Program-made: the position numbers and the translations under genes
The notes under the pieces: generated by a model
Told to the model about the DNA's origin: nothing
Database searches by the model: none
The model's input: only the letters and a program-made list of their open reading frames with translations
NCBI GenBank assembly: GCA_010356995.1
Contig: ML996692.1
Coordinates: 1,306,205 to 1,370,204 of the forward strand
Source: Trichodelitschia bisporula
Lineage: Eukaryota
Length of the DNA stretch: 64,000 nt
Direction of reading: 5' to 3'
Shown here: in pieces, positions 15,047 to 20,832 of the stretch
Layout of the letters: each line of letters opens with the position of its first letter
Numbering within the stretch: the first letter of the stretch is position 1

Positions 15047-15775
15047 GCTGGCTGGATGGTGTGGTATCTGTGTAATTCTTGTGATATAGCAATGATGGTC
15101 ACGATGAAGATGGGTACGGATATCTCGAGGTACTTTGCACCTGAAGCGCCGTTTTATGCCAAGCTCCATGTGAGGAGAAGTCCGCCAGGGCTGCCGCGCC
15201 TCCCATCTCCGACAAAGGAACCACACTGGAACATTCCGTCGCACAGCGCAAGGCGTGCAGAGCAGATACGGTATGTATGAGGAATGCGTCGTACTGCAGG
15301 GTGGGATGGGCATCGGGCGTTTTACGAGTGGCACTCGCTTATCCCATTCGCTGGTCGTTGGGGAATCTGAATTGCGCGTAAAGGTTGCGAGGGGGTGGAG
15401 TTACGATGAACTTCAGCTGGGGATGATGACGCCTTTGAGTGGATGGATCATCGAGGGCCATTGATCCACTCATACGGAGTAGAAAGCAATTGCCTGGCCT
15501 TCGGGGTTGCGGATTTGGATCTGACACTGGAGCCCACATCCAACCACGCAGCCAACCAACCCATCCGTCACGGAGTCGCCCTCCGGCCCCAACGAACACC
15601 AGGCTGAAGTGCATGAATCAATCATCGAACGCTCAACGAATCCCCTCGCAGCTCATCACGTTACCCTCCCTCCTTGCCCCCAAAAAACGAAATTGCGCCA
15701 AAAAGCGGCGACGCGTCTAAGTAGCGCTGGCGCTTGCGGCTTTTGTTTGGTCTCAGGGGCTTGCCAGCGGGCACG

Positions 15776-15882
15776 GATAAGATCCGCTGTTAATCGTGCC
15801 TATCGTCAGCCTTATCGTTGCTTTTAGATAGTGCGATGTGGAGAGTGGAGACGGATAAGAGCGTCTGGGGGGGGACGATAAT
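15776..15882. promoter_or_regulatory. Cluster of six GATA(A/G) elements upstream of areB
   Basis: GATAAG 15776, CTATC 15800, CTTATC 15811, AGATAG 15826, GATAAG 15854, GATAAT 15877. Confidence 0.6.
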
Positions 15883-16423
15883 CGAAGTCGTGAACTTGGG
15901 AATGTTACGGTGGATGGGTGGGTTGAGATGACGAGTGCTGCAATGCAAGTCGGTCTGCATCTTCTCATAAGATGGAGACGCGCACCGGACACCACGTCGA
16001 CAGCGCAGGCGCTTCAATCCCAGAGAACTGCATCCCTGGCTTGCGTCTGCCCCTTATCCTGCAGGTACGGAGTGGAAGCTTGGGCGATGCATGCGTTTGT
16101 TGCGTGAGCGGGCGCCTTGGGCCATAGCGTCTATGAACAAAAGGGCGCGTGTCTGTCCTTCTCTCCATTCTCTCCAGCAGGATCTCTACTACTGTCGTTG
16201 TACCATACCGTAATCGTAATTTGTATCTTGTTTGACACTCCCTCACTCATTTCGGGAGACCACGCTCGCTTTATACACGCTCGCTTTATACACGCCCGCT
16301 TTGCACACTCGTTTACCCGCTCCCTCACGCCCACTAGCACGCCTAATACTCGACTCCGGTCTAGCTATATACCCTTCTTCAACATCACAGCAAGAGAAGC
16401 GCTCAGCTTCTCCAACCGTCACT

Positions 16424-18097
16424 ACGGCTTCTACCCTCGCAGCACCCTTCCAGCGCCGCGCCGCCTCTCCACACATCCACACCCCAACACCAACATACCA
16501 CCTGCACCCCCCATCCGACGACCGACCTTCCCACCTGCACCTACCATCCGACAACGGGGACCGCCCCTCCCTCCCCGCCCTCGGTCTCTCCATCTCCCGG
16601 CCCTCGTCGACCAGCACGCAGGCCTCGAGCCACTACAGCCAGATCCGGTCCAGCAGTGTGCAATTGCCAGGCCTCTCAGCGCTGGCGAGCATCGCGACGT
16701 CGAGCACCCCGCCGCCTGATCATCCGCGCCATGGTAGTCTGGGGATAGAACATAATGGGTAGGTGGGACAGACGGAAGGGCGGGCAATTGGTACGGTGGT
16801 GTTTGGCGCTGATGGGCGACGGTGTGCTGCTGTGGCGGTATATCACCACCGTCGCGTCGAGGAGCCCAGCACCGTCACACCACTGCTTCTGCCTCGCACT
16901 TCCGTAAAAACTATCTCTTGCTCTAAACTCTAACAACATCGCAGTCTGCACGTGCGCCGCACAGCAAGCATGCCCTTCCCCGTCACACCAAGCGGCGTAA
17001 TCGTAAGCACCGCCACACCGGTACGTCCGCCCCTTCATTTTTCCGAGCCTCCCCACCCCCCCCCCCCCCCCCCCCCCCTGTCGCGCCTTTCCAAAAATCC
17101 TTATCGACAACGAGTCCAAATCGATAACAACCCGCAACCCGCCCCAATCAACCCAGCCTCGCAACGCAAGCAAATCGCCATCATGGCCGCCGCTCTGGCT
17201 AACAACCAGCAGCCCTCGTGTCAAAACTGTGCCACCGGCACCACGCCCCTCTGGCGCCGGGATGAGAACGGGTCGGTGCTGTGTAATGCTTGTGGGCTGT
17301 TTCTGAAGCTGCATGGACGGCCGAGGCCGATTAGTCTTAAGACGGACGTTATTAAGAGTCGGAATCGCGTGAAGACGACCGGGCCGGGGCCGAGGAAGAA
17401 GGTATGTCGCCGCCGCGCAATACGGTGCAGCGAAGCAGTTACTGATGCACTTTTGGGACAGATCACGGCCGGCGACCCCGCGCCCCCCGGACTCCCCGCC
17501 GCGCACCCGGACGCTGCATCCCTCGATCCCGCGCGCCGCGCGCAATTCAAGCCCGGCGAAGGGCGCTCCGCCAGCCCCGTCTCGCGCACCGGCACGCCAG
17601 GCCTCAACGGACACACCAACATCGCGCCGCAGCACATGTTCGACAGCGTATCGCTCAGCGATCCATCCTTCCCCTCGCCCTCGCTGCCACACTTCTCCTT
17701 CCGACACGGCTCGCCGAGCGCCTCCTCCGTCAACGGCGCACACCTCGAACCGCCGCCCACGTACGAGGGTCTGCTCGCCCAGGCAACCGGGCTCAAGACG
17801 CGGGTTAGCGAGCTCGAGGTTATCAACGACCTCTTCCGGGGCCGGGTTACGGAGTTGGAGGTTAGTCAGGCGGAGGCGCGGCGGGCGGAGAGTGGGCTAA
17901 GGATTGAGCGGAAGGAGGCGGCGATGCGGGAGATGGAGCTTAAGAGGAGGGTTGAGGAGCTGGAGGCGGAGGTGGCGGAGTATAGGGCGGAGGGGCCAGC
18001 GAGGAAGAGGTTGAGGGTTGAGGACTTTGTGAGGGATGGGAGTCGGAGTCGGGGGAGCTCGCCGGGGTCGGGGTCGGGGTCTACGCATAGTGTCTAG
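16424..18097 (+). CDS. areB: GATA zinc-finger/leucine-zipper regulator AreB/Asd-4 (Dal80-like). Short form starts at ATG 17183; long form proposed from a non-AUG start near 16424
   Basis: '[50 protein letters not shown]' and '[19 protein letters not shown]'. Intron 17402-17461. Upstream exons are joined by phase-compatible introns 16759-16944 and 17021-17209. The core call is firm; the 5' extension is inferred. Confidence 0.9.
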
Positions 18098-18322
18098 GCG
18101 GCCTTGCGGAGGATATTCTTTCGAGGGATGGGGATTTGAGCGTTCGAGTGGGGTGCTTAATGGGGGCGTTTGGAGCGTGTGGGCGGGTTTGTGGGCGCGG
18201 ACGCGGCAGTACAGCGCGCTTAATGTCTTGTTACCCCCTGGAAAGGCCTTGTGTACTTTATTCATGAGGTTGTGGCATGGGTCTGGAATAGGTAGAGGCG
18301 GATATCCAAAAGCGATGGCTTC

Positions 18323-18370
18323 TTCTTTGCTTCTTTGCTTCTTTGCTTCTTTGCTTCTTTGCTTCTTTGC
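18323..18370. repeat. Perfect 8-nt tandem repeat (TTCTTTGC)x6
   Basis: Read directly, downstream of areB. Confidence 0.95.
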
Positions 18371-18798
18371 TAAGCGCTCATGAGGCGATGATGGGAGCAA
18401 CTGCTCATTACGTGCGAAGGCAACTGTAAAACCAAAGATTGAAAGACGAAGAGATAAGTATACTCCTTCCTGACCTAACAATGTTCCTTCCATCTCGACA
18501 TCAGACGAGGCCGGGAAATATCGAATCATGTGATACCGTGGCGCGAGCTTCTTGCCAAGCCTTGCTCAAAGCTATGGCCTTGTAACCTCGTGCTTGAGTT
18601 CTACATCTCCATAAACTACGACACCATCTCCACCGACACACGTCGCACCTCGAGAAAGCACCACACTCTAATACACACATCATTGGATTGAACGACACCA
18701 CGAAAGTGCATAAAAGCGTACTGCTAGCTATATCCCGCCGTATATCTCGTGCTCACTGATATATGACAGTACCAACCAGGTCACTTTAACAGGCCGCC

Positions 18799-20832
18799 AT
18801 GGCCACCGATCTCGACGACTGGATCGCGCAGGGCCACCCCGCGGTCGCGGTCCTGGACCCACCACCGCCGAACCACAGCTGCATCGTGCGGCCGATTGAG
18901 TTCCTCACGCAGTGTGAGGTGGACGCCGCCGGGGTGGGGCAACAAGATGCGAAGGAGCGCCTCGAATGCATTGCGCGCATGGATGGGGTGAGGAGGCGGT
19001 TCGGCATGCCGATTACAACGCTAGGCCGCGCGTGCACGTACTTCCTCAAGTACGTGTATGCGGCGGCGCTGGACCCGGGGGTTCGGCCGCATGCTCGCGA
19101 GGCCGTCCCGCTCACCTGCCTGTGGCTCGCGTCCAAGGTGGCCGAGACACCGAAGAAGTCGCGGGAAATCGCGTGTGCGGCGCATAATTTACAGAGGCCG
19201 CAGGAGGAGTGGGCGACGCCCGACCAGGCGATGTTTGAGGAGCAGTCGAGGGCGCTTATTTCCTTTGAGCGGAAGCTCCTGGCTATCCTGGCGTTCGATT
19301 TCGAGTGGCCGGACCCGCTTCGCCTGCTTGTAAGCCTCTGCGCTCAGCTGGATACGCCGGAGATTACCAAGGACACGGCGCTGAAGCTCGTTTCGGACCT
19401 CTTTCGGACAATGGCGCTCGTCATGTATACGCGCCAGGCCATGGCTTGTGCCTGCCTTGAGCTTGCTTACCGGCTGCATGGCAATCATCTTGCGAAGGTG
19501 ACTAGCAAGGAGCTGTATGGTACCCATATGGTGGAGCGGCACGAGGTGCTTGGTATGTTTCTGACGTGTTTCCTCGACTACAAGCTAACCCGGCCAGAAA
19601 CCATGATCGCCCTGATTGAACTCTCCGTCGACGAGCCTAAGCAGCTTGCCGTCGGCAATGCGTTCACCGTCACCCGTTGGGCATCAATCAGCACCGCTGT
19701 GCGCAAGGAGCTTGAGAAGGTAAATCAAGGCCGCCCCAAGCATCACTGCAAGCCAGCCATGCGCACCCCAGCCTCCGACAACAAGACGCCACAGAGCCCA
19801 GATACCATCATGGGTTCGCCGCCCGCCGATCACGAAACATACGAAGAGAAACGCTTCCTCGGTAGACCCGTCAGCCCACCTCCATCCTTCATGTACCGCG
19901 ACGACGACGAAGACCGGCCCTCCGACTTCGTCCGCAGCCCATCGCCAGAAGAATCCGTGACCCGCGTCACGCGCTTCGTGTTCAACCGCGAACGCGCTGA
20001 GGAGGCTGAGCGTGCGATGCAGCCGTTTTATCGGGTATCGCAACAGCGTTATCGTGATACGCGGCTTATCTATGTACCTCAGGTGCGGGAGCCGGAGTCT
20101 GGAGACGTCGTACCTGATGAGGATGTAAGTTTTCCCTTTAGTTTCCGTGACCTTTGTGCTCATGGTGTGTAGCATCGCAGCCCGCGTGGTCGCCATACGA
20201 ACAATCCGGCTCTGCGTCCGCGCAAGCGCTCGCGCTCGGAGTCCCCCACGCTGGACGAGAACTCGCGCTCGAACCGTGGAACCTCGGAAGTGGACCGTGC
20301 CGCTCGGAAGGAGAGCCGCGTGAAGCGTGAGCCGTCCCCGCGCACGGCTTCGCGCCAGTCAACCTACCACCGCGACGAGGCACCGCGCTCTGGTCTTTCC
20401 CGCCGCGAGAGGGATCGCGAGCGGTCGCGTGAGCGTGAGCGGGCTAGAGAGAGGGAGCGGTACCGTGAGGCGGAGAGGCGGGCTGAGAGCCCGCGGGAGC
20501 GGGAGAAGGAGCGGTTGCGCGAGCACGAGAGGGAGAAGGAGAGAGAGAAGGAGAGGGAGCGTGAGAGGGAGAGGGAACGTGAGAGGGAGAGGGAACGTGA
20601 GCGGGAGAGGGATCGCTACGAGCGTGTTGCCCGTGCGACTCGGTCGCCTGGGTATGAGCGGGAAAGGGGTCGTGAGCGGGAGCGTGAACGGGAGCGGGAG
20701 AGGGAGCGGTATGAGCGGGATTATGAGCGTGAGCGGGAGAGAGAGCGGGAGAGAGACCGCGAGCGGGAACGGGAGAGGGAGAGGGAGCGGGAAAGAGCGC
20801 ATCGCCGGGAGTACAGTCCCCGGAGACGCTAA
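18799..20832 (+). CDS. Transcriptional cyclin (CTK2/cyclin K-like) with a long Arg-Glu C-terminal tail
   Basis: Cyclin-box-like 'DGVRRRFGMPITTLGRACTYF', 'CLWLASKVAETPKKSREIACAAHN', 'FERKLLAILAFDF'. Introns 19553-19597 and 20125-20172 put the RE-rich exon in frame; TAA at 20830-20832. Confidence 0.78.

What the first reader, a model, noticed from the sequence alone, without database searches (positions are those of the whole stretch)
16424..17209. AUG-less upstream exon of areB: candidate ACG-initiated long isoform
Seen: the stop-free frame 16232-16758 has no in-frame ATG but encodes protein-like 'TASTLAAPF...[18 protein letters not shown]'. Donor GTAGGT at 16759 (phase 2) matches the CTCTAAC...GCAG acceptor at 16944 (phase 2). 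Donor GTACGT at 17021 (phase 0) matches the GCTAAC-AAC-CAG acceptor at 17209 (phase 0). Together they fuse about 137 residues onto the zinc finger. An in-frame ACG sits at 16424 in the context 'gtcactACGG'. Known: Aspergillus nidulans areB makes several isoforms by differential splicing and a non-AUG (GUG) start. Inference: the same control logic, possibly with a different near-cognate codon, which automated annotation would miss. The exact start codon is a guess.
Basis: partly seen in the sequence, partly recalled or inferred. Interest (0 to 1): 0.75.

Follow-up and report, generated by a model that had tools for sequence, protein, structure and literature searches.

The report
ACG-started long isoform of areB

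Summary
The locus is the areB/asd-4 GATA-factor gene of a Dothideomycete. The identical public protein is named Trichodelitschia bisporula (284 aa) and starts at the AUG inside intron 2.

Spliced RNA contigs confirm three introns: 16759-16944, 17021-17212 and 17402-17461.

The frame 16220-16758 has no ATG, yet it is homologous to annotated AreB/Asd-4 N-termini.

In 28 metagenome loci carrying the N-terminal motif, the codon aligned to window ACG 16424 is ACG in 26 and ATG in 2. These collapse to 19 distinct sequences, 17 ACG and 2 ATG. A at -3 and G at +4 are invariant. In-frame stops lie 2, 3 and 7 codons upstream in three lineages. Downstream the sequence shows coding-type variation.

The gene therefore matches the three-isoform plan of Aspergillus nidulans areB, with ACG in place of GUG. 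Predicted sizes are 411 aa (gamma-like), 291 aa (beta-like) and 284 aa (alpha-like).

An extra feature is a sense-strand hairpin 11-38 nt upstream of the start in 16 of 18 distinct ACG sequences and in neither ATG sequence. Covariation does not support it statistically.

No direct evidence of translation exists. This is a new variant of a known kind.

The parts
15776..15881 (.). Cluster of GATA motifs, likely the upstream areB promoter region
   Evidence: Four HGATAR sites at 15800, 15812, 15826 and 15876 make this the densest 300-nt stretch of the window (4 against a mean of 0.43). Two more GGATAA at about 15776 and 15854 were read by eye. A promoter role is inferred from the PMC6494665 statement that both A. 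nidulans areB promoters hold GATA elements.
15619..18351 (+). Extent of the spliced RNA contigs (areB transcript as assembled)
   Evidence: X2 record 6 spans 15619-17888 and X1 record 1 spans 15839-18351, both with three GT..AG joints and 0 mismatches. Contigs cannot show the true 5' end.
16134..16730 (+). ATG-free stretch covering the leader and most of exon 1
   Evidence: 597 nt hold no ATG in any frame, the second longest such run on the + strand. Alone this is weak: the expected count is 4.3, and 16 of 200 swap shuffles also had none. Across 20 distinct related sequences the 300 nt upstream of the start hold 13 ATGs against about 61 expected.
16394..16412 (+). Predicted RNA hairpin GAGAAGC-gctca-GCTTCTC, ending 11 nt before the ACG
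   Evidence: 7 Watson-Crick pairs, -10.9 kcal/mol. 4 of 500 shuffles of the 60 nt upstream do as well. The region 16380-16500 folds with z -3.49. Homologous hairpins occur in 16 of 18 distinct ACG sequences. Covariation is not significant.
16424..16426 (+). ACG, proposed start codon of the long (gamma-like) isoform
   Evidence: Context gtcactACGgct. The aligned codon is ACG in 26 and ATG in 2 of 28 motif-bearing loci. A at -3 and G at +4 are invariant in 20 distinct sequences. Thr codons elsewhere in the same sequences are ACG in only 30 of 107.
16424..16758 (+). Coding part of exon 1 (111 codons plus 2 nt), the N-terminal extension
   Evidence: Homology to annotated N-termini. Codon differences at positions 1/2/3 are 0.355/0.279/0.61. 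19 invariant residues use 3-6 synonymous codons.
16731..16757 (+). Two out-of-frame upstream AUGs (16731 and 16755) between the ACG and the beta-like AUG
   Evidence: On the spliced mRNA they open uORFs of 5 and 19 codons. By my reading of the sequence the second overlaps ATG 16970.
16759..16944 (+). Intron 1 (186 nt, phase 2); retaining it puts TAG 16760-16762 in frame
   Evidence: Joint 16758/16945 in both runs. In-frame TAG seen.
16945..17020 (+). Exon 2, holding the first in-frame AUG (16970-16972, beta-like start)
   Evidence: The AUG is residue 121 of the joined frame.
17021..17212 (+). Intron 2 (192 nt) with tandem acceptor CAGCAG 17207-17212. It contains the alpha-like AUG 17183-17185, two GATA sites (17101, 17122) and a C run at 17051-17078.
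   Evidence: Joint 17020/17213. ATG 17183 in context gccatcATGgc. Public protein P0106 starts there. GATA sites, C run.
17213..17401 (+). Exon 3, GATA zinc finger
   Evidence: Pfam PF00320, E 8e-15; joints.
17402..17461 (+). Intron 3 (60 nt)
   Evidence: Joint 17401/17462.
17462..18097 (+). Exon 4 coding part with the Asd-4-like leucine-zipper domain and the stop TAG 18095-18097
   Evidence: Pfam PF25026, E 9.4e-23. 100% identical to P0106 over 211 aa.

Best explanation
This is the areB/asd-4 gene of a Dothideomycete, built on the same three-isoform plan as Aspergillus nidulans areB.

The fully spliced mRNA, with introns 16759-16944, 17021-17212 and 17402-17461 removed, carries an AUG-poor leader. 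Scanning ribosomes can then start at ACG 16424, which sits in the best context for a near-cognate codon (A at -3, G at +4). Initiation there, presumably with initiator Met-tRNA, would give a 411-aa gamma-like protein. Its 120-residue Ser/Pro-rich extension carries the conserved [17 protein letters not shown] and [12 protein letters not shown] motifs.

Ribosomes that pass the ACG can reach AUG 16970 and make a 291-aa beta-like protein, though two out-of-frame AUGs (16731, 16755) lie in between. Transcripts that start inside intron 2 would use AUG 17183 to make the 284-aa alpha-like protein, which is the annotated one.

What is shown: the splicing, the absence of an AUG, the homology, the conservation of the ACG and its context, and the coding-type variation. 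What is inferred: initiation at the ACG in vivo, the ratio of isoforms, and any role for the upstream hairpin.
For: - RNA: spliced contigs from two runs of one sample join 16758/16945, 17020/17213 and 17401/17462 with GT..AG ends. They run unspliced upstream to 15619 and 15839.
- No AUG: the frame 16220-16758 has none and is closed upstream by TAA 16217. The joined frame from the ACG is open for 411 codons, and its first Met is residue 121.
- Family: GATA and Asd-4 domains; 103 long orthologues found.
- Exon 1 is coding. It aligns with annotated N-termini (BLASTP 2e-12 and 5e-8). Across 18 sequences the differences at codon positions 1/2/3 are 0.355/0.279/0.61 over 12243 pair-columns. 19 invariant residues use 3-6 synonymous codons, including TCN/AGY Ser and CGN/AGR Arg.
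- Start codon: of the 36 metagenome loci, 35 were examined and 28 carry the [T/M]AS[TA]L motif. The codon aligned to 16424 is ACG in 26 and ATG in 2, L023 and L025. With the window these collapse to 20 distinct sequences, 18 ACG and 2 ATG. A at -3 and G at +4 are invariant. Thr codons elsewhere in the same sequences are ACG in only 30 of 107.
- Bracketing: in-frame stops lie 2 codons (L024), 3 codons (L009/L010) and 7 codons (L019) upstream of the ACG, with no ATG between.
- cDNA-like relative: L019 is spliced through to the C-terminus. Its first in-frame Met is 36 codons after the ACG.
- Orthologues with an AUG: annotated proteins begin MASTL..., MASLAAP... or MATLASP... where the window reads T-ASTLAAP.
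- Leader: 13 ATGs observed against about 61 expected in the 300 nt upstream, over 20 distinct sequences.
- Precedent: GUG-initiated AreB-gamma in A. nidulans, with a 116-aa extension (PMC6494665). A conserved ACG with A at -3 and G at +4 starts an extension of cpc-1 in Pezizomycotina (PMC5487733).
Against: - No direct evidence of initiation or of the protein exists for this or any ACG-bearing orthologue.
- The RNA data are contigs from one sample. They cannot show the transcription start site (TSS), transcript levels or rare variants.
- The contigs reach 15619, and at least 8 ATGs lie between 15902 and 16133. If most transcripts start that far upstream, scanning to the ACG would be hampered.
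- The ATG-free run in the window alone is weak evidence: 16 of 200 shuffles also had none.
- Seven loci of one clade (L001-L006, L008) lack the ACG and have a Met 12 codons downstream, in RPMAIDIQ. The ACG is therefore not universal.
- Three loci (L028, L035, L036) have an in-frame ATG 87-108 codons upstream in an open frame.
- Alignment with the Aspergillus Val, the presumed GUG, is ambiguous. It falls on the ACG in one alignment and on the Leu four codons downstream in others.
- The metagenome loci are related by descent, so the counts are not independent events.
Confidence: 0.8

Rival explanations
1. Exon 1 is translated, but from another near-cognate codon in the open frame. Upstream candidates are ACG 16262 and AAG 16397. 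Downstream candidates are ATC 16475 and CTG 16502 or 16535.
For: The frame is open for 68 codons upstream of 16424 and holds 8 other near-cognate codons there, with 13 more downstream. The translated 'EKR' at 16394-16402 recurs in Pleosporales-type relatives. The codon four places downstream is CTG or TTG in 12 of 18 relatives.
Against: - Only 16424 combines A at -3 with G at +4.
- Only this codon is invariant across relatives.
- Stops 2-7 codons upstream in L024, L009/L010 and L019 exclude upstream starts in those lineages.
- The 'EKR' similarity is accounted for by the conserved 5' arm of the hairpin, GAGAAGCGC.
- The downstream Leu codon is CTC in the window and varies among CTC/CTG/TTG/CTT in relatives.
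Confidence: 0.08
2. In this species exon 1 is only a 5' leader. Protein starts at AUG 16970 or 17183, and the frame's protein-like look is a relic.
For: The public annotation uses AUG 17183. Most Dothideomycete orthologues are annotated at 277-300 aa. There are no translation data.
Against: - The open frame is kept for 111 codons, with the conserved motifs intact and in register with the splice phase.
- Variation across relatives is of the coding type, including the window row.
- Two out-of-frame AUGs in good context (16731, 16755) stand between the leader and AUG 16970. That suits a main start at 16970 poorly.
Confidence: 0.07
3. An AUG is supplied by a further upstream exon, or by an alternative transcript not represented in the contigs.
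For: Contigs drop rare variants, and only one sample was available.
Against: Both contigs are colinear with the genome from 16757 back to 15839 and 15619 with no joint. The in-frame TAA at 16217 closes the frame. Relatives show stops just upstream of the ACG.
Confidence: 0.02

Closest known systems
Aspergillus nidulans areB (AreB alpha, beta, gamma). Source: Conlon et al. 2001, as summarised in PMC6494665. I read only passages of the latter; Conlon 2001 itself was not read.
   Same: - Same gene family (GATA finger plus C-terminal zipper).
- Three introns are removed in the longest mRNA.
- The long isoform has no AUG and needs a near-cognate start. The extension is of similar length, 116 aa there and 120 aa here.
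- The first AUG gives the beta form.
- Retaining intron 1 breaks the long frame.
- A further AUG inside intron 2 gives the short alpha form.
- GATA motifs lie near both putative promoters.
   Different: - The start codon is ACG, not GUG.
- It is unclear whether the two sit at the same codon or four codons apart.
- The alpha-specific N-terminus is about 10 residues here and 14 there.
- The upstream hairpin is not mentioned in the passages I read.
Conserved non-AUG N-terminal extension of cpc-1 in Pezizomycotina (PMC5487733, passages read)
   Same: Both are transcription-factor mRNAs in which a deeply conserved ACG, with A at -3 and G at +4, opens an extension conserved at the amino-acid level.
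   Different: It is a different gene and protein family. The cpc-1 extension works together with two uORFs and several near-cognate codons. Here a single codon is conserved, and in some lineages it is replaced by AUG.
Fusarium fujikuroi areB. Three isoforms, of which the longest interacts with AreA (Michielse et al. 2014, known to me only as cited in PMC6494665 and PMC4246892).
   Same: Multiple N-terminal isoforms of the same regulator. It shares the ISRP.STST and LPG(I/L)SALA motifs in the N-terminal region.
   Different: Fusarium-type proteins begin with an AUG (MEEDG...) and lack the (M/T)ASTL N-terminus.
Neurospora crassa asd-4, Magnaporthe Asd4 and yeast Gzf3-type GATA repressors (names taken from hit descriptions)
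   Same: Same domain pair, PF00320 plus PF25026.
   Different: I found no description of a non-AUG start for these in the searched library.

Membership tests
AreB/NreB/Asd-4 GATA factors | Single GATA-type zinc finger | tested here: met
   PF00320, E 8e-15, residues 92-125 of P0002.
AreB/NreB/Asd-4 GATA factors | C-terminal Asd-4-like leucine-zipper domain | tested here: met
   PF25026, E 9.4e-23.
AreB/NreB/Asd-4 GATA factors | Best hits are proteins named AreB, Asd4 or GZF3 | tested here: met
   There is a 100% match to P0106 (Trichodelitschia bisporula), and 56-62% identity to named Dothideomycete proteins.
A. nidulans-type three-isoform areB plan | Longest mRNA formed by removal of three introns | tested here: met
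   Three GT..AG joints in contigs of X1 and X2.
A. nidulans-type three-isoform areB plan | Long isoform's reading frame lacks an AUG and begins at a near-cognate codon | tested here: met
   No ATG in 16220-16758. A conserved ACG sits at 16424. The codon differs from the published GUG. Initiation itself was not tested.
A. nidulans-type three-isoform areB plan | First AUG on the same mRNA gives a shorter beta form | tested here: met
   ATG 16970 in exon 2 is residue 121 of the joined frame, giving 291 aa. This holds at the sequence level only.
A. nidulans-type three-isoform areB plan | Retention of intron 1 disrupts the long frame | tested here: met
   In-frame TAG at 16760-16762. No retained-intron contig was seen, and contigs cannot exclude one.
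A. nidulans-type three-isoform areB plan | Second promoter inside intron 2 with its own AUG (alpha form) | tested here: inconclusive
   ATG 17183 lies in a good context, and GATA sites lie at 17101 and 17122. The public model P0106 starts there. Orthologues with MATTLTDQKRPQLQPV-type starts exist. No alpha-specific contig was seen.
Conserved near-cognate-initiated N-terminal extensions | The near-cognate codon itself is conserved across species while synonymous sites vary | tested here: met
   ACG in 16 and ATG in 2 of 18 sequences at the site. Thr elsewhere is ACG in 30 of 107. Invariant residues use 3-6 codons.
Conserved near-cognate-initiated N-terminal extensions | Strong initiation context (A at -3, G at +4) | tested here: met
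   Invariant in 20 distinct sequences.
Conserved near-cognate-initiated N-terminal extensions | Direct evidence of initiation (profiling, toeprint, reporter, N-terminal peptide) | not testable with these tools
   Only assembled contigs of one sample were available.

The most novel reading that the evidence does not exclude
The invariant ACG and a sense-strand hairpin 11-38 nt upstream of it may form one conserved translational control module of areB/asd-4 in Dothideomycetes and Leotiomycetes. It would set how much long (gamma) protein is made relative to the shorter forms from one mRNA.

The evidence for the hairpin:
- It is kept where the start is ACG, in 16 of 18 distinct sequences.
- It is absent where the codon has become AUG, in 0 of 2.
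- It is decaying in the clade that lost the ACG. L001 and L002 keep it with 3 G-U pairs, while L003, L004 and L008 have lost it.
- The two fungal classes pair the same GCGTT(T)C core with partner arms on opposite sides.
- G-U pairs make it specific to the mRNA strand.

Across Pezizomycotina the N-terminal start of this regulator appears to toggle among AUG, GUG and ACG.
Probability: 0.3. Interest if true: 0.7.

Novelty: new variant of a known kind. Interest (0 to 1): 0.55.

Why it matters
[quoted passage not shown] Its isoforms are thought to differ in function.

If the long isoform starts at a conserved ACG in many Dothideomycetes and Leotiomycetes, then most public gene models for this regulator in those classes lack 120 or more residues. 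That region carries the family's best conserved N-terminal motifs. Here the annotated protein is the 284-aa alpha-like form. Knock-out, tagging and expression studies built on such models would miss or truncate the main product of the spliced mRNA.

The site also offers a natural series (AUG, GUG, ACG, with and without an upstream hairpin) for testing how fungi tune near-cognate initiation on a regulator mRNA.

Tried and rejected
- Whole exon-1 frame against longer proteins: searching the stop-to-stop translation P0001 by word index gave no hit at E <= 0.001. Homology only appeared once orthologues were found through the C-terminal exon.
- No whole genome is held for this window.
- Sequencing runs: no RNA holder is listed. 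The two runs offered, X1 and X2 from one sample, nevertheless hold intron-less GT..AG-joined contigs.
- Parts without contig cover (introns, and upstream of 15619) are not used as evidence.
- No alpha-specific contig, intron-1-retaining contig or contig using acceptor 17209 was seen. Contigs cannot show that these are absent.
- The ATG-free run in the window alone is suggestive only.
- Hairpin downstream of the ACG, as in Kozak's 1990 model (recalled): there is no consistent structure in +4..+63 across 18 sequences. The z-scores run from -2.4 to +1.7, and the window's is 0.06.
- Covariation in the upstream hairpin is not supported. 95% of cells pair, against 38-72% when the partner is slid. 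However, 379 of 500 shuffles reach the observed covariation, and only one pair changes on both sides. The window row is mis-registered in that alignment because its 3' arm is 2 nt shorter.
- Alignment A3 was cut at the wrong coordinates and was not used. No covariance model was built.
- Earlier notes of this scan returned nothing.
- Phosphoproteome papers that mention AreB (PMC8399174, PMC6495382) give no site that can be placed in the extension.
- PMC5404775 holds none of the isoform or start-codon terms.
- Literature searches for an ACG or non-AUG start in areB or asd-4 outside A. nidulans found nothing relevant. Subscription papers are not covered.
- Structure and complex prediction were not attempted. 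The extension is Ser/Pro-rich.
Full report
**What is there.** The region 16934-18097 encodes a GATA zinc finger (PF00320, E 8e-15) and an Asd-4-like C-terminal domain (PF25026, E 9.4e-23). The last coding exon is 100% identical to a public 284-aa protein named 'hypothetical protein EJ06DRAFT_491996 [Trichodelitschia bisporula]', a Dothideomycete of the order Phaeotrichales. The next best named hits are 54-62% identical proteins called Asd4, GZF3 or 'gata transcription factor', mostly from other Dothideomycetes. The gene is therefore the areB/asd-4 orthologue of this fungus.

**Checking the observation.**
- The stop-to-stop frame 16220-16762 has no ATG and is closed upstream by TAA 16217-16219.
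- Two coded runs from one sample (X1, X2) hold contigs identical to the window. They join 16758/16945, 17020/17213 and 17401/17462, each with GT..AG ends. They also show a fourth such joint in the neighbouring gene (18717/18770). They are therefore transcript-derived, although their record does not say RNA.
- The only departure from the finding is the second acceptor. The RNA uses the AG at 17212, the second of a tandem CAGCAG, and not 17209. The branch-like GCTAAC at 17197-17202 is only 7 nt from the first AG, which may explain the choice. That is my inference.
- Joined in this way, the frame from ACG 16424 is open for 411 codons. Its first Met is residue 121, at ATG 16970.

**Is exon 1 coding?** Yes, by comparison.
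- Long orthologues found through the C-terminal exon (103 proteins) carry N-terminal regions that align with the exon-1 frame. The shared motifs are [19 protein letters not shown] and [13 protein letters not shown].
- Pairwise BLASTP gives E 2e-12 to a Verruconis protein and 5e-8 to a Scytalidium protein. A third comparison (P0004) gives only 0.013 after composition adjustment.
- A search of 1.84 billion representative proteins with the 111-residue exon peptide gives 21 hits at E <= 0.001, the best at 3.4e-12.
- An alignment of these N-terminal parts retrieved 36 metagenome loci with DNA.
- In 18 distinct sequences (the window plus 17 loci), pairwise differences at codon positions 1, 2 and 3 are 0.355, 0.279 and 0.61 over 12243 pair-columns. 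The 19 gap-free invariant residues use 3-6 synonymous codons each, including switches between TCN and AGY Ser and between CGN and AGR Arg. That is the signature of protein-level selection.

**Where does it start?**
- Of the 36 loci, 35 were examined; L032 is cut at its 5' end. Of these, 28 carry the N-terminal [T/M]AS[TA]L motif.
- The codon aligned to window 16424 is ACG in 26 loci and ATG in 2, L023 and L025.
- With the window these collapse to 20 distinct sequences over -60..+48, 18 with ACG and 2 with ATG. A at -3 and G at +4 are invariant.
- No locus has ACA, ACC or ACT at the site. Thr codons elsewhere in the same sequences are ACG in only 30 of 107.
- In-frame stops lie 2 codons (L024), 3 codons (L009/L010) and 7 codons (L019) upstream of the ACG, with no ATG between. 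In those lineages the start cannot be further upstream.
- L019 is a spliced, cDNA-like contig that reads through to the C-terminus. Its first in-frame Met is 36 codons after the ACG, and it has Leu where other orthologues have the beta-type Met.
- Annotated orthologues that do have an AUG begin MASTL... (Pseudogymnoascus, Scytalidium), MASLAAP... (Pseudovirgaria) or MATLASP... (Elasticomyces). The window reads T-ASTLAAP at that place.
- In the window, 16424 is the only in-frame near-cognate codon with both A at -3 and G at +4.
- The 300 nt upstream of the site hold 13 ATGs against about 61 expected, over the 20 distinct sequences.
- The window's own ATG-free run (16134-16730) is the second longest on its strand. 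By itself it is weak evidence.

**Relation to the known case.** PMC6494665 (passages read) describes the A. nidulans isoforms as follows.
- areB-gamma mRNA has three introns removed. [quoted passage not shown]
- Retention of intron 1 breaks the gamma frame.
- AreB-alpha (312 aa) comes from a promoter inside intron 2, with its own AUG.

Every element has a counterpart here:
- an ACG-opened extension of 120 residues;
- ATG 16970 in exon 2, giving 291 aa;
- TAG 16760-16762 in frame if intron 1 stays;
- ATG 17183 inside intron 2, giving 284 aa. This is the public model, P0106.

GATA motifs cluster at 15800-15876, the densest 300 nt of the window. Two more lie in intron 2, ahead of the alpha-like AUG.

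Aspergillus proteins annotated with spurious upstream extensions read ...T-V-ASLLFRASPIDP. Whether that Val, presumably the GUG, aligns with the ACG itself or with the Leu four codons downstream cannot be settled without Aspergillus DNA. In the window that Leu codon is CTC, which is not a near-cognate. In relatives it varies among CTC, CTG, TTG and CTT.

**An added feature.** Eleven nucleotides upstream of the ACG the window can form a 7-bp hairpin (16394-16400 with 16406-16412), at -10.9 kcal/mol. Only 4 of 500 shuffles of the 60 nt upstream do as well, and the 121-nt region folds with z -3.49.
- A stem of at least 7 bp lies within 60 nt upstream in 16 of 18 distinct ACG sequences. The exceptions are L016, which has a degenerate copy further upstream, and L027, which has 5 bp. 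It is present in neither ATG sequence.
- Dothideomycete-like loci pair GAGA(A/G)(G/A)CGC with GCGTTTCTC, 11-18 nt before the ACG.
- Leotiomycete-like loci pair CGCGTTC with a downstream GAACGCG, 22-38 nt before it.
- The shared GCGTT(T)C core therefore has partners on opposite sides in the two classes.
- G-U pairs make the structure specific to the sense strand.
- This element explains why the translated 'EKR' upstream of the ACG looks conserved.
- In the clade that lacks the ACG, L001 and L002 keep a hairpin with three G-U pairs, while L003, L004 and L008 have lost it.
- The formal tests are not convincing. 95% of cells pair, against 38-72% for slid partners. However, 379 of 500 shuffles match the covariation, and only one pair changes on both sides.
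- There is no consistent downstream structure.

I treat the hairpin as a real conserved element of unknown role. A link to near-cognate initiation is a hypothesis. An upstream sequence enhancer of near-cognate starts is described in mammals (PMC13754004, abstract read), but it is a GCC-rich motif and not a hairpin.

**Caveats.**
- Nothing here shows translation.
- The RNA evidence is contigs from one sample. They give junctions but not ends, levels or rare forms.
- The contigs extend to 15619 and 15839, upstream of the GATA cluster and across at least 8 ATGs (15902-16133). If those are the main 5' ends, reaching the ACG by scanning would be hard. The conserved ATG-poor leader suggests that the main start site lies nearer, around 16140-16230. 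That is inference.
- Two out-of-frame AUGs in good context (16731 and 16755) open uORFs of 5 and 19 codons on the spliced mRNA. The second overlaps ATG 16970 by my reading. They stand between the ACG and the beta-like AUG. On this mRNA the long form may therefore be the main product, and the beta form may need other transcripts.
- Taxon labels for the metagenome loci are inferred from their resemblance to named proteins.

**Novelty and verdict.**
- Non-AUG initiation of the long AreB isoform is known in A. nidulans.
- I found no description of an ACG start in areB or asd-4 in the searchable library. That library lacks most subscription journals.
- What is new is that the site is an invariant ACG in this Dothideomycete and in 17 other distinct environmental sequences of two fungal classes. 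It is exchanged for AUG in some lineages. The public gene model omits it.
- This is a new variant of a known kind.

Noticed in passing
window 17207-17212: Tandem acceptor CAGCAG at the end of intron 2. RNA contigs use the distal AG (17212), giving ...TATP|PSCQNC. This matches the two residues that orthologues have before the first finger Cys.
   Followed up: partly
window 16261-16302: A 15-nt tandem repeat (CACGCTCGCTTTATA, 2.8 copies) lies in the leader upstream of the ACG, inside the ATG-free stretch. A 9-nt TTCTCTCCA x2 repeat at 16159-16176 lies in the CT-rich tract where the main TSS may be.
   Followed up: no
window 17051-17078: Run of 28 C (92% pure) in intron 2. Contigs of the RNA runs appear cut there.
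   Followed up: no
window 18322-18371: Perfect (CTTCTTTG)x6.2 microsatellite in the areB 3' UTR. Both RNA contigs end inside it, at 18351.
   Followed up: no
window 18718-18769: A 52-nt GT..AG intron is spliced out just upstream of the next gene's ATG, which opens the ORF at 18790-20172.
   Followed up: no
L019:313-1540: A cDNA-like metagenome contig of a Leotiomycete-like areB, spliced through to the C-terminus. It has two in-frame TAA stops 7-8 codons before the ACG and Leu where others have the beta-type Met. The ACG-started form would be its only full-length product.
   Followed up: partly
L001-L006, L008: This clade lacks the ACG: the aligned codon is TCT in L001/L002. It has a Met 12 codons downstream (RPMAIDIQ, context cggcctATGgc). 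L001 and L002 still have the upstream hairpin with 3 G-U pairs, while L003, L004 and L008 do not.
   Followed up: partly
L024:2375-2383: Two ACG codons in tandem directly after an in-frame TAA (taa tac acg ACG gct).
   Followed up: no
P0006, P0010, P0015, P0020, P0030, P0038-P0043: Public models of areB orthologues are fused to neighbouring genes (SRP or PPR proteins) or carry long unconserved N-terminal extensions. This is probably because gene callers searched upstream for an AUG in the AUG-less open frame.
   Followed up: no
P0023 versus P0028: Two Talaromyces-type proteins differ at the N-terminus. One reads ...QQLS-M-APILFRASP and the other ...K-TAST-V-APILFRASP. This suggests the start has shifted by four codons within one genus.
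   Followed up: no
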